Shown piece by piece: positions 52,592 through 63,822 of a stretch of 64,000 nt of DNA. The notes below the pieces were generated by a model that had not been told where the DNA came from, did not search any database, and saw nothing but the letters and a program-made list of their open reading frames with translations. A program made the translations under genes and the position numbers. The DNA is taken from the IMG/VR virus record IMGVR_UViG_3300045012_000235, positions 60,601 to 124,600 of that record; one strand, given 5' to 3'. The first letter of the stretch is position 1; each line of letters begins with the position of its first letter. Source of the DNA: a virus.

Positions 52592-54265
52592 CTAGAGCAC
52601 GGCCGCCGGCGCAGCTCCCGAGCTCGGCGAGAGCGCCGCCAGCGCGGCATTGAGCGCCGCCGCAGTCTCCTGCGTATATTTCCCATCGGTCGAAATTTGC
52701 GAGTCGGCGCTCGCCGCATTCCACGCCCGCGCGAAGTTCATCACCGACCGGGTCGCGTACTGCGGCGCGCCGGTGCGGCGGAGGGAGCCGAGAAGATCGA
52801 GCGCCATCGCCTTGAGCACGTCGTCGTCCACGCTGCCGACGCCGGCCATTCCGACGCACGGCCGCACGGACTCGAGGGACAAGAGGTAGAGACCCCCGTC
52901 GGCGCCGCGAACCGGCACCGAACCGCCGCCCGACCCGCGGAGCGTATTGCGCACGGAGGCAAAGATCTCCGGCGGGAGGCGAATCGGATCGCCCCAGCTC
53001 GCGCACGAGACTTCGCCCGGTGCCACGATGACGTAAGGCCACCACGGGCCGCCGCCCCATCCCCAGCCACCACCCCAGCCCCCGTAGCCGCGACCGCGGA
53101 AGACGCGACGACCGCCGCCCCCGCCGTGCCAACCGCCCCCGCCACCGTGCCCACCACCGCCACCATGACCGCCGCCCCCGCCCCCGCGGCCGACGCCTGC
53201 AGTCGTTCCGCCCGCGTCCGGGTAGGGGCCGTACGCGCCTCCTCCTGCAGCGGGTGGTGCTGACGCGGGGGGAGGACCTGCAGGCGCCGCCGAAGGTCCT
53301 GCGGGCGATGCCGAGGGTCCTTTTGCAGGCCCTGACGGGGCGCCCGGGTGCGGGGCGGCGCTCTGCAGGTTGTGTCCGACGGCCATCGCCATCCCGGTCT
53401 TCAGCGAGTTCTTGACGTCAGCAGGGATCTTCGCGTTCTCGAGCGTTTGGTCGGCGAGCGCGTGCTGCCCGGCCGAGGTTCCGATCCCGCCCGCGGAGTT
53501 GACGGCCGCCTGTGCGCTCGCGGGCAGCGACGCCATTGCGGCACGGAGCGTTGCCGGATCGGGCACCTTGCCCTGCGAGAGGGACTGCGAAATTTTCAAG
53601 CCGTTGCCGATCATCGTCTTGGCGGACGCATCGAGCCCTGGGATCGCGGACAGCGCGCCCATCGGGTCCTTGCCGTCCATTGCCGCGAACCCAACCGCGT
53701 AGAGCGCCTTGCCGGTTGGGCCGCCGGCGACGCTGTCGGCGACTCCGGCAATGAGTGCCGGGTCGATAGCTTGTCCGCTCGCGAGCGCTTGCCCGGCTGC
53801 GACGGCGCCCGAAGCACCATCCCCGATCGCAGCCGTGTTGCCTTGCACGATCGACGCGTAGGACGCTGCCGTTCGGTACACCTTGATCTCGTGCGAGAGC
53901 TGGTCTTTGGCGGCCTGAACGATGTTCTGGCCGTGCGCTATTTTCGACGCGTACTCGAGCGGAATCCGAACGCCTGCCGTCACCGTCTCGTAGGTCTCTT
54001 GGAGAGCTTTGCCGACGTACGGGATTTTCCCGAAGTCGATGTGGATCTTGGGGAGGCCGATGTGGAAGCCTTCGACACCGACTGGCTTCCACTCGCGTGG
54101 CCAGCACGCGAGCCCGGTGCCGACCGAACCGTCGCCGGTACCGAGCCTGTCTGCGATGGAAACGTTCGGGCCCTCATCCGGTCCCCACGGTCGGGGCGGG
54201 CAGTTGTACGGGAGCGTCGGGCAGAAGTTCTCGCCGAGGCCAATGCCGTTTCGGTAGAGGGTCAT
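52592..54265 (-). CDS. Gly/Ala-rich virion protein with a C-terminal peptidoglycan-binding-like domain
   Basis: AGGAG RBS before ATG 54265 (MTLYRNGIGLGE); poly-Gly tract; VMNFARAWN...ISTDGKYTQETAAAL. Confidence 0.6.
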   Translation of the reverse strand: MTLYRNGIGLGENFCPTLPYNCPPRPWGPDEGPNVSIADRLGTGDGSVGTGLACWPREWKPVGVEGFHIGLPKIHIDFGKIPYVGKALQETYETVTAGVRIPLEYASKIAHGQNIVQAAKDQLSHEIKVYRTAASYASIVQGNTAAIGDGASGAVAAGQALASGQAIDPALIAGVADSVAGGPTGKALYAVGFAAMDGKDPMGALSAIPGLDASAKTMIGNGLKISQSLSQGKVPDPATLRAAMASLPASAQAAVNSAGGIGTSAGQHALADQTLENAKIPADVKNSLKTGMAMAVGHNLQSAAPHPGAPSGPAKGPSASPAGPSAAPAGPPPASAPPAAGGGAYGPYPDAGGTTAGVGRGGGGGGHGGGGGHGGGGGWHGGGGGRRVFRGRGYGGWGGGWGWGGGPWWPYVIVAPGEVSCASWGDPIRLPPEIFASVRNTLRGSGGGSVPVRGADGGLYLLSLESVRPCVGMAGVGSVDDDVLKAMALDLLGSLRRTGAPQYATRSVMNFARAWNAASADSQISTDGKYTQETAAALNAALAALSPSSGAAPAAVL

Positions 54266-54275
54266 GGTGCTGCTC

Positions 54276-63800: not shown

Positions 63801-63822
63801 AGAGCAGCGATTGTGTCCGCAT
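60811..63822 (-). CDS. Large modular core protein: small N-domain, Arg/Lys-rich tract, TM helices, duplicated helical modules, Ala/Pro tail
   Basis: About 220 aa of K/R-rich sequence with repeated (K/R)RRRP(R/K)..RE units; hydrophobic segments; His-rich region; internal GAGG RBS before ATG 63606. Confidence 0.7.
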   Translation of the reverse strand: MRTQSLLFDRAAGWTPEKAKAWARSHGYKSGKVDVTDQYVRLRQLDPKGFTVKRTVPFGKGIRAVVAREEKTMPKKKKSTRRPARKSSAKKPKTAHRAAPKRRAAKRRSAPKSKTTVVSARRRRPRRVREAGTGRFAVKAKRRRPRRVREATPMVVAAKRRKPRRRKSAARRKGHASYVMAKRRPRRTAHKKHKKHKKVRAWHGDSAGHSKAAKKGWKGRKGGKSKTKKAAESRRRRPRHVRETTMVVKARRRPKRRHHAREAMVVKARRRPKHRRARETKVVRSYRSHKVRAPNLKSMARTAGTMALEVGAGVAGFLVADAVDRFLATYNPSAASKPSDKFTSDGAGTLANALNVASAPDLWRYGSLAALTVLPLGGSLFIKHAALRSPARGIGIGAGIKLAATFWTNVLMPMLIGKDTSVPALQKSWVARLYPAEVSATLNMKSGTAAVSGSAAGKAGVLSGAGDAGPFALADRFRREERHDPWVTPRAWPQTVAPAAPAFADPGYVAPPAVAAPVQPAWPAHFGERHRWGLRGVGAAIEDMHHTIMHRTGVHPAHAFNAAMHAAAEPVDLTLALQRALPHLRHELLQECARHLHPHVARMHEHARHPHEHAQWTHARAAEGFPAPEHDAPEHEWREWHHKRASAGLPGAPPPPEAPSIAPATPEHLRSHHEWHPKYDRKINNDRFPTVPQVLGIGAGGPASSGYPGQPGLGEVFSDAVQTVAASVPGVPLENAVNTTAYAAAEPFNCTRAIERAMPLIRRELASYCASNVSPYIHQLHEQTGVPMPSPEGAPAPATEAALAPAPAVDTVVAFVPSSPPPGWTRTEAEWHEEEKKNWEQSHGNAHPAVVAATKQAAETAAAPHPDADKPAVQAAVKAVAEHAAQAASATAPGTPAPEVHAAATQAAKAVAADSHPDVADHPAVKAAVKAAATTATAATATPAAPPAAGVSSPPRHLQVGPTRLPHPQGPQPISSECGCLDDSPYLGFVGDEVEEDLMHNMN

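What the first reader, a model, noticed from the sequence alone, without database searches (positions are those of the whole stretch)
52592..63822. Virion module of a large tailless virus with three single-jelly-roll-like paralogs
Seen: a contiguous minus-strand operon with no recognisable terminase, portal, HK97 capsid, tape measure or baseplate genes. Three adjacent beta-rich proteins (427, 198 and 331 aa) share the order of strand-like elements and similar ends (FKLGIKIKGWEM / FDVHILFQGWQF / RIAGSL). A terminator follows the largest. At least four neighbours carry TM anchors. Established: paired large and small single-jelly-roll capsid proteins plus an internal membrane typify Sphaerolipoviridae/P23-77-like viruses, whose genomes are far below 64 kb. 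Inference: an unusually large tailless membrane-containing virus with a tailed-phage-like early region.
Basis: inference. Interest (0 to 1): 0.8.

Follow-up and report, generated by a model that had tools for sequence, protein, structure and literature searches.

The report
Capsid genes of large tailless virus
This gene block most likely builds the protein shell of a complete 125-kb soil bacterial virus that uses jelly-roll shell proteins and has no detectable tailed-phage head, portal, terminase or tail genes, a design otherwise known only from much smaller viruses.

Summary
The ORFs, the hairpin terminator and the membrane anchors are as described. The window is the last 64 kb of a complete 124,600-bp virus record with a 127-bp terminal repeat, so "look beyond 64000" could be done. 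No terminase, portal or HK97 capsid family matched in this genome or in 13 relatives, and no tape-measure or sheath family in this genome.

The 427-aa protein folds with confidence (pLDDT 86.6) into a jelly-roll core with large insertions. Its best structural matches are capsid proteins of SPV1, PRD1/PR772, HCIV-1 and STIV, but only at Z 5.5-6.3. The 331-aa protein (pLDDT 69.5) is a jelly roll whose one match at Z 5 or more is the HHIV-2 penton protein (Z 6.8). I could not fold the 198-aa protein.

"Paralogs" is not supported: BLASTP and profile comparisons are null.

The order 427-198-331-277 is kept in 28 of 28 related loci.

The only FtsK/HerA-type ATPase lies 31 kb away and occurs in only 6 of 14 genomes. 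No conserved packaging motor is visible.

A 1003-aa polybasic membrane protein precedes the capsid gene.

Verdict: virion module of an undescribed lineage of large tailless jelly-roll viruses. Membership of Sphaerolipoviridae-like families is not shown. This scan has noted the same family before, on other genomes.

The parts
60811..63822 (-). 1003-aa protein: short N-terminal domain, then a polybasic stretch (K+R 103 of 250 in residues 51-300, with four RRRRPRRVREA-like repeats), a Gly/Ala-rich hydrophobic region (about 300-430) and a His/Pro/Ala-rich tail. Proposed DNA-condensing, membrane-associated core protein.
   Evidence: composition, repeats. Homologue found directly upstream of the 427-aa gene in 25 of 28 related loci; 2 of the 3 misses lack upstream DNA. 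No Pfam or PHROG match. The function is inferred.
59450..60733 (-). 427-aa candidate major capsid protein: jelly-roll core with large insertions.
   Evidence: 176 representatives at E<=1e-3 in 1.84 billion clusters. AF2 pLDDT 86.6, pTM 0.85. VIA-align: SPV1 6oj0_Z Z 5.9, PRD1 P3 Z 5.6, HCIV-1 6h9c_D Z 5.5; PR772/PRD1 P3 Z 6.0-6.3, STIV Z 5.9. No Z>=8. Highest GC3-GC2 bias in the genome (0.46).
59385..59425 (-). Hairpin terminator or attenuator between the 427-aa and 198-aa genes.
   Evidence: 14-pair stem, 10 G-C pairs, 3-nt loop, TTTTCTTTTT. Similar hairpins in 10 of 24 distinct relatives.
58760..59356 (-). 198-aa protein, the most conserved of the trio. Proposed second capsid or capsomer-associated protein; fold not determined.
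   Evidence: 524 homologues at E<=1e-3; the best 120 are at least 67% identical. No Pfam, PDB-profile or Atlas structure. Always sits between the 427- and 331-aa genes (28 of 28 loci).
57755..58750 (-). 331-aa jelly-roll protein with a disordered N-terminus and an N-terminal helix. Candidate vertex (penton) protein.
   Evidence: 397 homologues; the best 120 are at least 52% identical. AF2 pLDDT 69.5. The only match at Z>=5 is HHIV-2 chain 6h82_b, Z 6.8, rmsd 7.5 A, 123 of 135 residues; next is the STIV turret protein 4ind_A at Z 4.7. 6h82_b read as the gene-22 penton protein from PMC6414509 passages and the 174-aa ORF22.
56925..57758 (-). 277-aa protein with a C-terminal membrane anchor (start taken at the internal ATG behind GGAGAGGA).
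   Evidence: Homologue follows the 331-aa gene in 28 of 28 loci. No Pfam match.
56037..56912 (-). 291-aa protein with a C-terminal membrane anchor. Possibly a lysozyme-like virion enzyme.
   Evidence: TM segment. Only weak PHROG endolysin hits: phrog_342 E 0.024, phrog_7 E 0.046. No PDB sequence match.
55430..55765 (-). 111-aa small membrane protein.
   Evidence: Homologue detected in 7 of 28 loci.
54276..55427 (-). 383-aa protein with a C-terminal membrane anchor.
   Evidence: Homologue detected in 4 of 28 loci.
52592..54265 (-). 557-aa Gly-rich protein (start at the internal ATG behind AGGAG); last gene of the run.
   Evidence: no family.
26370..28142 (+). 590-aa HerA/FtsK-superfamily ATPase, the genome's only candidate packaging ATPase. 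It is not a core gene.
   Evidence: Pfam HerA_C 1.3e-11, DUF87 8.4e-8. phrog_2666 'terminase large subunit' 5.3e-18. PDB best matches are HerA helicases. PADLOC HerA and mad8. Present in 5 of 13 relatives.

Best explanation
The block is the core of the virion (morphogenesis) operon of a complete 124.6-kb tailless bacterial virus from soil. The operon runs on the minus strand, and across the record's end it is preceded by further conserved genes: a 181-aa protein, a RadC/JAB protein, a 202-aa protein, a 624-aa Pro/Ala-rich repeat protein, a LysM-like tail-anchored protein and a transglutaminase-like cysteine protease. Proposed working, all steps inferred unless marked. The 427-aa jelly-roll protein is the major shell protein, and the hairpin after its gene lets it be made in excess of the downstream products. 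The 198-aa protein is a second shell or capsomer-associated protein. The 331-aa jelly roll forms the fivefold vertices, with its N-terminal helix pointing inward as in the HHIV-2/HCIV-1 penton. The tail-anchored proteins (277, 291, 111, 383 aa and the LysM protein) populate an internal membrane and supply wall-binding or wall-cutting activity for entry. The 1003-aa protein condenses DNA with its polybasic stretch and ties it to the membrane. Because no ATPase is conserved across the family, the genome is probably enclosed as a condensed nucleoprotein during assembly rather than pumped in by a terminase or an FtsK-type motor. Shown here: the gene order and its conservation, the predicted jelly-roll folds of two proteins, the hairpin, the hydrophobic anchors, the basic composition, and the absence of matches to tailed-phage hallmark families.
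For: Complete genome: IMG/VR DTR record, CheckV 100%, exact 127-bp repeat.

Hallmark searches, six-frame. Terminase_6N 0 of 14, TerL_ATPase 0 of 14, HK97 Phage_capsid 0 of 14 and Phage_portal 0 of 14 genomes. Terminase_3, SPP1_portal, tape measure and tail sheath 0 of 1 (own genome). The controls matched in known genomes.

PHROG scans. Of 63 ORFs from the first 60.6 kb, 20 families matched and none was head, packaging or connector. Of 64 ORFs from the window, the only 'packaging' hit among the 25 of 45 families shown is the HerA-like ATPase.

Folds. 427 aa: pLDDT 86.6. In the wide search the top rows include SPV1, PRD1, EhV-201, HCIV-1, PBCV-1, Orf virus D13, HHIV-2, Faustovirus, FLiP and P23-77 VP16 capsid proteins. 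In the second look the top 9 rows are all capsid proteins. 331 aa: HHIV-2 penton at Z 6.8, which is 2.1 above the next row.

Conservation. The trio is 48-84% identical in 6 of 6 fully fetched relatives. The order 427-198-331-277 holds in 28 of 28 IMG/VR loci. Related complete DTR genomes are 80-116 kb.

Walker A motifs occur in 4 called ORFs: two helicases, the HerA-like ATPase and the ParB-HTH protein, the last read as spurious.
Against: All structural matches are below Z 8, the range the tool calls common for unrelated models. Non-viral jelly rolls (carbohydrate-binding modules, PHM, GOLD, TNF-like domains) are interleaved at the same Z. Foldseek gave no match at E<=1e-3 in PDB or BFVD.

The 198-aa fold is unknown.

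The hallmark tests are sequence-profile tests, so very divergent HK97 or portal proteins could escape them. In one search only 25 of 45 matching PHROG families were shown.

The genome also carries a 521-aa protein with a PHROG 'baseplate protein' domain (7.1e-10) and a sub-threshold T4 gp9/10 N-terminal match. Earlier notes describe collagen-like fibres, which tailed phages also have.

A DTR and a helicase/primase/recombinase set are typical of tailed phages.

No particle, lipid or proteome data exist.
Confidence: 0.65

Rival explanations
1. The architecture is PRD1-like rather than sphaerolipovirus- or SPV1-like. On this reading the 427-aa protein is a double jelly-roll capsid protein forming trimers, and the 198- and 331-aa proteins are minor or vertex proteins.
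For: In the second-look alignment the top 7 rows are PR772/PRD1 P3 at Z 6.0-6.3. They have 143-161 aligned residues spanning nearly the whole of both chains, more than the 105-120 residues aligned to single jelly rolls. The model has about 18 strands after the N-terminal arm and three long helices, enough for two barrels. Recalled, from no call: 427 aa is a typical double jelly-roll size.
Against: Z is tied with the single jelly-roll SPV1 VP4 (5.9). Single barrels align over model range 50-407, that is, using both the first and the last strands. That fits one core barrel with insertions. Only about 150 of about 390 P3 residues align, at rmsd 4.3-6.4 A. I had no access to coordinates to read the topology.
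Confidence: 0.25
2. It is a tailed phage whose head, portal, terminase and tail genes are too divergent to detect. The trio would then be decoration, fibre or baseplate-type jelly-roll proteins.
For: PHROG baseplate-domain hit and sub-threshold T4 gp9/10 N-terminal hit in a 521-aa protein. Jelly-roll domains of tail fibres and baseplates appear among the matches at Z 4.2-5.2. The DTR genome and replication genes resemble those of tailed phages.
Against: Large terminase is usually detectable, yet two TerL families gave 0 of 14 genomes and a third gave 0 of 1. Portal and HK97 gave 0 of 14. No core gene carries a Walker A motif. The most conserved, most codon-biased genes of the family are the trio itself.
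Confidence: 0.08
3. The element is not a virion-forming virus. It would be a plasmid-like or other mobile element, and the trio would form some other jelly-roll assembly or surface structure.
For: No packaging motor is conserved. The viral label rests on automated classification.
Against: The terminal repeat and discrete 80-125-kb genome sizes. A capsid-like and a penton-like fold side by side. A terminator-tuned high-expression gene, wall-binding and possible lysozyme genes in one strictly ordered operon. Near-identical DNA in soil runs of 3 studies other than the 4 possible source samples.
Confidence: 0.07

Closest known systems
Sphaerolipoviridae and Matshushitaviridae (Halopanivirales: HHIV-2, HCIV-1, SH1; Thermus phage P23-77)
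   Same: Adjacent genes for a larger and a smaller shell-type protein, with a jelly-roll vertex protein in the same module. The 331-aa model's best match is the HHIV-2 penton chain (Z 6.8). The 427-aa model matches HCIV-1 chain D (Z 5.5) and P23-77 VP16 (Z 4.7). The structural genes are surrounded by small membrane proteins, and those viruses also carry virion-associated wall-degrading enzymes (P23-77 annotation).
   Different: The genome is 124.6 kb, against 17.0 kb (P23-77) and 30.6 kb (HHIV-2). Gene order here is large then small; there it is small then large. Those viruses have a packaging ATPase gene beside or near the capsid genes, and none is conserved here. No sequence similarity was found (hhalign probability <=1.6%), but the known pair VP16/VP7 also fails that test. 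The 427-aa protein is much larger than VP17 (291 aa) or VP4 (232 aa).
Portogloboviridae: Sulfolobus polyhedral virus 1 (PDB 6oj0)
   Same: Top match of the 427-aa model in the unbiased search: 6oj0_Z, Z 5.9, rmsd 4.6 A, 116 of 180 residues. Recalled, not checked in a paper here: SPV1 has single jelly-roll hexamer and penton proteins, an internal membrane, a nucleoprotein core and no identified packaging ATPase. That matches the motor-less, polybasic-protein picture proposed here.
   Different: Recalled: SPV1 has an archaeal host and a genome of about 20 kb. Here the context is bacterial-type and the genome is 124.6 kb. The 427-aa protein has about 250 residues of insertions. Z is below 8. The SPV1 record was not found under the accession I tried, so no gene-level comparison was made.
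PRD1-type double jelly-roll viruses (Tectiviridae, STIV; Bamfordvirae)
   Same: PR772/PRD1 P3 align at Z 6.0-6.3 over 143-161 residues and STIV MCP at Z 5.9. The STIV turret/penton protein is the second match of the 331-aa model (Z 4.7). Both groups carry membrane proteins in the structural module.
   Different: There is no conserved FtsK/HerA (A32-like) packaging ATPase: DUF87 in 5 of 14 genomes, FtsK_SpoIIIE over cut-off in 0 of 14. The double-barrel topology is not established. The genome is several-fold larger than those of known prokaryotic members (recalled).

Membership tests
Halopanivirales (Sphaerolipoviridae / Matshushitaviridae) | Two major capsid proteins, each a single vertical jelly roll (small, and large with a tower) | tested here: inconclusive
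   The 427-aa model has a jelly-roll core: HCIV-1 6h9c_D Z 5.5, P23-77 VP16 Z 4.7. It ties with double jelly-roll P3 at Z 6.0-6.3.
Halopanivirales (Sphaerolipoviridae / Matshushitaviridae) | Sequence homology to VP16/VP17 or VP7/VP4 | tested here: inconclusive
   hhalign of A1, A2 and A3 against P23-77 VP16/VP17 and HHIV-2 VP7/VP4/ORF22: all probabilities <=1.6%. The control pairs VP16-VP7 and VP17-VP4 also scored <=0.6%, so the test has no power.
Halopanivirales (Sphaerolipoviridae / Matshushitaviridae) | FtsK/HerA-type packaging ATPase gene in or next to the capsid module | tested here: not met
   No Walker A protein in the operon. The HerA-like gene lies about 31 kb away and is found in 5 of 13 relatives. 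In P23-77 and HHIV-2 an ATPase gene sits near the capsid genes.
Halopanivirales (Sphaerolipoviridae / Matshushitaviridae) | Single jelly-roll penton protein with an N-terminal helix | tested here: inconclusive
   331-aa model against HHIV-2 6h82_b: Z 6.8, 123 of 135 residues but rmsd 7.5 A. It is the only match at Z>=5. The model has helix 36-47 before the barrel. Z is below 8.
Halopanivirales (Sphaerolipoviridae / Matshushitaviridae) | Genome of about 16-31 kb | tested here: not met
   124,600 bp with a DTR, against 17,036 and 30,578 bp.
Halopanivirales (Sphaerolipoviridae / Matshushitaviridae) | Internal lipid membrane | not testable with these tools
   Only indirect evidence: 4 tail-anchored or membrane proteins in the operon and a LysM-like tail-anchored protein upstream.
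Portogloboviridae (SPV1) | Single jelly-roll capsid protein (VP4) plus a jelly-roll penton (VP10) | tested here: inconclusive
   6oj0_Z is the top match of the 427-aa model in the wide search (Z 5.9). It also matches the 331-aa model at Z 4.1-4.2. All are below Z 8.
Portogloboviridae (SPV1) | No packaging ATPase; genome held in a nucleoprotein core (feature recalled) | tested here: inconclusive
   No conserved ATPase was found, and a polybasic 1003-aa protein is present. Absence by sequence search is not proof, and the core protein's role is inferred.
Bamfordvirae (PRD1-like double jelly-roll viruses) | [quoted passage not shown] | tested here: inconclusive
   PR772/PRD1 P3 Z 6.0-6.3 with 143-161 of about 390 residues aligned. 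Single barrels align over the model's whole length. The topology was not readable without coordinates.
Bamfordvirae (PRD1-like double jelly-roll viruses) | A32/FtsK-HerA packaging ATPase as a conserved hallmark | tested here: not met
   DUF87 in 5 of 14 genomes (4 over cut-off), FtsK_SpoIIIE over cut-off in 0 of 14. Two of the hits are truncated frames of 213 and 331 aa.
Caudoviricetes (tailed phages) | Large terminase | tested here: not met
   Terminase_6N 0 of 14, TerL_ATPase 0 of 14, Terminase_3 0 of 1. The one PHROG 'terminase' hit is the HerA-fold ATPase.
Caudoviricetes (tailed phages) | Portal protein and HK97-fold capsid protein | tested here: not met
   Phage_portal 0 of 14, SPP1_portal 0 of 1, Phage_capsid 0 of 14. 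A PHROG 'portal' hit at 4.3e-7 falls on the NUDIX domain of a NUDIX protein. These are sequence-profile tests only.
Caudoviricetes (tailed phages) | Tail genes (tape measure, sheath, baseplate) | tested here: inconclusive
   PhageMin_Tail and Phage_sheath_1 0 of 1. One 521-aa protein carries a PHROG baseplate-protein domain at 7.1e-10.

The most novel reading that the evidence does not exclude
A widespread lineage of 80-125-kb soil bacterial viruses builds a jelly-roll shell over a membrane and encloses its genome without any packaging ATPase. On this reading the DNA is condensed by a giant protamine-like, membrane-associated protein (the 1003-aa product) and wrapped during assembly. That principle is known only from about 20-kb archaeal viruses, and here it would operate at 4-6 times the genome size.
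Probability: 0.3. Interest if true: 0.85.

Novelty: new variant of a known kind. Interest (0 to 1): 0.7.

Why it matters
Recalled, not checked here: described tailless jelly-roll viruses of bacteria and archaea have genomes of roughly 10-45 kb, and large bacterial virus genomes are taken to belong to tailed phages.

This lineage is complete, recurrent and tailless, at 80-125 kb. It has hundreds of homologue clusters in metagenomes, and near-identical DNA turns up in independent soil studies. If the reading holds, the size range of this virion design is several-fold wider than thought.

It would also show that automated 'Caudoviricetes by default' labels hide other virus groups. And it raises a concrete question: how is more than 100 kb of DNA put inside a jelly-roll shell when no motor gene is conserved?

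The trio gives a ready marker set for finding these viruses and their hosts.

Tried and rejected
Paralogy of the three proteins. BLASTP and hhalign of family profiles found nothing significant. I dropped it as a sequence-level claim.

HerA-like ATPase as the packaging motor. Considered because of Pfam HerA_C/DUF87 and the PHROG 'terminase large subunit' label. Downgraded because it is absent from 8 of 13 relatives by protein search, truncated in two of the five that match, resembles defence-type and helicase HerA proteins, and lies far from the operon. It remains the best BLASTP match in this proteome to the HHIV-2 ATPase, at E 0.013 only.

Complex prediction of the 427-aa and 198-aa proteins: no verdict. 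It counts neither for nor against binding.

ESM Atlas. It holds no model for the 198-aa protein. Its own model of the 427-aa protein is poor (pLDDT 0.31), so its neighbours are meaningless.

PDB sequence and profile searches with A1, A2, A3, the 291-aa and the 642-aa proteins found nothing.

Lysozyme assignment of the 291-aa protein. It rests only on PHROG E 0.02-0.05 and on a T4-lysozyme-like E-G-x5-Y-x-D-x2-G-x2-T motif that I recall from memory. I kept it as 'possible'.

The conserved upstream 353-aa protein as a hidden HK97 capsid. Rejected: it reads as a LysM-like N-terminus, an Ala-rich middle and a C-terminal anchor.

Host. Only 3 hits in 185,579 species genomes, on short MAG contigs binned as Polyangiaceae, Binatia and (weak, 30% identity) Thermomicrobiales. 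Binning may be by composition, so this is a lead only.

Expression. No RNA holder was listed.

Literature. Four searches. From the listings and abstracts I saw no paper describing this group. I read passages of only one paper, PMC6414509.

SPV1 record: the accession I tried was not in the phage collection.

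
Full report
WHAT IS THERE. The window is G000:C1:60601-124600, the last 64 kb of a 124,600-bp IMG/VR virus record. The record is classed as having direct terminal repeats and is estimated 100% complete. I confirmed an exact 127-bp repeat at the two ends.

The finding's ORFs exist as described. On the minus strand they are 1003 aa (60811-63822), 427 aa (59450-60733), 198 aa (58760-59356; the listed ORF is 208 aa, but homologues are called at 198 aa) and 331 aa (57755-58750). 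Then follow 277 aa (56925-57758), 291 aa, 111 aa, 383 aa and 557 aa (52592-54265). The 277- and 557-aa starts are internal ATGs behind GGAG-type sites.

A 14-pair hairpin with a T-run follows the 427-aa gene. A similar hairpin is found in 10 of 24 distinct related loci. Four of the six other operon proteins have a strongly hydrophobic segment.

Because the record is terminally redundant, the operon continues upstream across the record's end into minus-strand genes at genome 545-9012.

IS IT A TAILED PHAGE? I found no evidence that it is.
- Six-frame family searches over this genome and 13 relatives of 80-120 kb gave 0 of 14 for Terminase_6N, TerL_ATPase, HK97 Phage_capsid and Phage_portal.
- In this genome alone, Terminase_3, SPP1_portal, tape measure and sheath gave 0 of 1. 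The tools' control genomes did match.
- PHROG scans of 63 ORFs from the first 60.6 kb returned 20 families, none for head, packaging or connector.
- A scan of 64 window ORFs returned 45 families, of which only 25 were shown. The one 'terminase large subunit' label belongs to a HerA-fold ATPase. A 'portal' label falls on a NUDIX domain.

Against this stands one 521-aa protein (genome 34125-35690) with a PHROG baseplate-protein domain (7.1e-10) and a sub-threshold T4 gp9/10 N-terminal hit. All these tests are also sequence-based.

THE THREE PROTEINS. None matches Pfam, PHROGs or PDB sequences.

They are not detectably related to each other. BLASTP gave E 0.87, 0.007 and 1.3. hhalign gave probabilities of 0.8%, 0.7% and 0.3%.

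Each belongs to a large metagenomic family:
- 427 aa: 176 representatives at 50% clustering, out of 1.84 billion.
- 331 aa: 397 clusters.
- 198 aa: 524 clusters. The 198-aa protein is the most conserved; the best 120 are at least 67% identical.

The 427-aa model is confident (pLDDT 86.6, pTM 0.85). Foldseek found nothing at E<=1e-3, though its weak top rows are papillomavirus L1, SPV1 and Faustovirus capsid proteins.

VIA-align against 48,161 chains gave 19 matches at Z>=5 and none at Z>=8. The top rows were SPV1 VP4 (Z 5.9), PRD1 P3 (5.6), EhV-201 MCP (5.6) and HCIV-1 (5.5). Carbohydrate-binding and other cellular jelly rolls sit at the same level.

The second look put PR772/PRD1 P3 first (Z 6.0-6.3, 143-161 residues aligned), then SGIV, SPV1 and STIV. 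Single barrels align across model residues 50-407, which suggests one core barrel closed by the first and last strands, with about 250 residues of insertions. The longer P3 alignments keep a double jelly roll open. I could not read coordinates, so this stays unresolved.

The 331-aa model is moderate (pLDDT 69.5). Its only match at Z>=5 in both VIA runs is HHIV-2 chain 6h82_b: Z 6.8, 123 of 135 residues, rmsd 7.5 A. The next row is the STIV turret protein at Z 4.7 in the wide search and dopamine beta-hydroxylase (4zel_A) at Z 4.6 in the second look. Most other rows are single jelly-roll capsid proteins.

I read chain b as the penton protein for three reasons. Passages of PMC6414509 say the capsid subunits are lettered A-X and a. 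They say the HHIV-2 penton is the gene-22 product with its first 40 residues disordered. And ORF22 is 174 aa, which fits the chain range 39-173.

The Atlas holds no model of it.

CONSERVATION AND CONTEXT. In 28 of 28 IMG/VR loci the order 427-198-331-277 is kept on one strand. The 1003-aa homologue lies upstream in 25 of 28, and 2 of the 3 misses lack that DNA. The transglutaminase-like gene lies upstream in 24 of 28, and the other 4 lack the DNA. Some loci are near-duplicates.

Against six fully fetched relatives, genes present in 6 of 6 are:
- the trio (48-84% identity) and the 1003-aa protein;
- a transglutaminase-like protein (Pfam 3.1e-6) and a RadC/JAB protein;
- the 624-, 181-, 139-, 86- and 145-aa proteins;
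- part of a 542-aa protein and a 642-aa Thr/Ala-rich protein.

The upstream 353-aa protein is LysM-like with a C-terminal anchor.

In this genome about 3 kb holding a glycosyltransferase-like gene sits between the transglutaminase-like gene and the 1003-aa gene. In relatives those two genes are adjacent.

PACKAGING. Walker A motifs occur only in two helicases, one spurious site and the HerA-like ATPase at window 26370-28142. That ATPase matches in 5 of 13 relatives by protein search; in two of them the frames are truncated, at 213 and 331 aa. DUF87 matches in 5 of 14 genomes. Together that makes 6 of 14 genomes. FtsK_SpoIIIE is over its cut-off in 0 of 14. Of the five DTR genomes, two lack the ATPase entirely. 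It resembles HerA helicases and defence-system HerA proteins. I therefore treat it as accessory. That leaves the family without a visible motor.

The 1003-aa protein has K+R at 103 of 250 positions in residues 51-300, with four RRRRPRRVREA-like repeats. A hydrophobic Gly/Ala-rich region follows. I propose, as inference, that it condenses the DNA at the membrane.

COMPARISON WITH KNOWN GROUPS. Membership is not shown.
- Genome size is not met: 124.6 kb against 17.0 and 30.6 kb.
- An ATPase gene next to the capsid genes is not met.
- The sequence test is powerless, because known members also fail it.
- The two-single-barrel architecture is untested for the small protein.

SPV1 (Portogloboviridae) is an equally close analogue, as the top unbiased structural match and, from recall, in lacking a motor. 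PRD1-type double jelly-roll viruses cannot be excluded for the 427-aa fold.

EARLIER NOTES OF THIS SCAN. The same gene trio has been noted on other genomes by this scan and followed up several times with the same broad reading: a large tailless jelly-roll soil virus with no recognisable motor.
- the completed whole-genome hallmark test;
- the penton-type match of the 331-aa protein;
- the 28-of-28 synteny count;
- the demonstration that the one HerA-type ATPase present here is patchy in the family.

NOVELTY AND VERDICT. Four literature searches showed no description of this group in the listings and abstracts. Near-identical DNA occurs in soil metagenome runs of 3 studies other than the 4 possible source samples. 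Three MAG contigs binned as Polyangiaceae, Binatia and (weakly) Thermomicrobiales carry the 198-aa gene.

I rate it a new variant of a known kind: a jelly-roll, probably membrane-containing tailless virus, but several-fold larger and without a conserved packaging ATPase. Confidence in the main reading is 0.65. The chief weaknesses are the middling Z-scores, the unfolded 198-aa protein and the lack of any particle data.

Noticed in passing
window 26077-29244 (+): HerA-like ATPase (590 aa) translationally coupled to a 98-aa upstream ORF and followed by a 343-aa protein with no family. PADLOC matches HerA models and mad8. The gene is present, sometimes truncated, in only some relatives. It could be a virus-borne defence or DNA-end-processing module rather than a packaging enzyme.
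   Followed up: partly
genome 56667-59087 (-), L005:1667-4087: UvrD-type helicase (806 aa) interrupted by an intein: Pfam Hint_2 and Intein_splicing between the helicase halves.
   Followed up: no
genome 34125-35690 (+), L003:15125-16690: 521-aa protein with a PHROG 'baseplate protein' domain (7.1e-10, residues 49-175), a sub-threshold T4 gp9/10 N-terminal match and a sortilin/BNR-like region. It is the only tail-like signal in the genome and may be a vertex spike or fibre adaptor.
   Followed up: partly
window 60811-63822 (-), residues 121-285 of the product; also genome 39286-39723 and 41115-42110: Four RRRRPRRVREA-like repeats in the 1003-aa protein. Related short motifs (VVEATRRR, KEARRRARRR) occur at the termini of other proteins of the genome. 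They could be a shared targeting or cleavage signal.
   Followed up: no
genome 5102-6976 (-), L002: Core 624-aa Pro/Ala-rich protein with four copies of a LLAMQKQMFEMMQ-like motif. Conserved in 6 of 6 relatives; could be a scaffold or length-determining protein.
   Followed up: no
genome 545-3061 (-), L002: About 3 kb holding a glycosyltransferase-like gene (Pfam 5.3e-9) and a 307-aa gene (phrog_1574) lies between the transglutaminase-like gene and the 1003-aa gene. In relatives those two genes are adjacent. This looks like an accessory insertion inside the structural operon, next to the record's terminal repeat.
   Followed up: partly
window 17913-18707 (-): NUDIX hydrolase (phrog_1198, 3.9e-14) whose NUDIX region also hits a PHROG labelled 'portal protein' (4.3e-7). 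This is a label artefact from a fusion protein, not a portal.
   Followed up: yes
window 43879-45807 (-): 642-aa Thr/Ala/Val-rich protein with no family or PDB match. It is conserved, at least in part, in 6 of 6 relatives and lies outside the operon; a candidate spike or receptor-binding protein.
   Followed up: partly
L075, L076: Homologues of the 198-aa gene (68% and 64% identity) lie on short contigs binned into Polyangiaceae and Binatia MAGs. This is a possible host lead, or a binning artefact.
   Followed up: no
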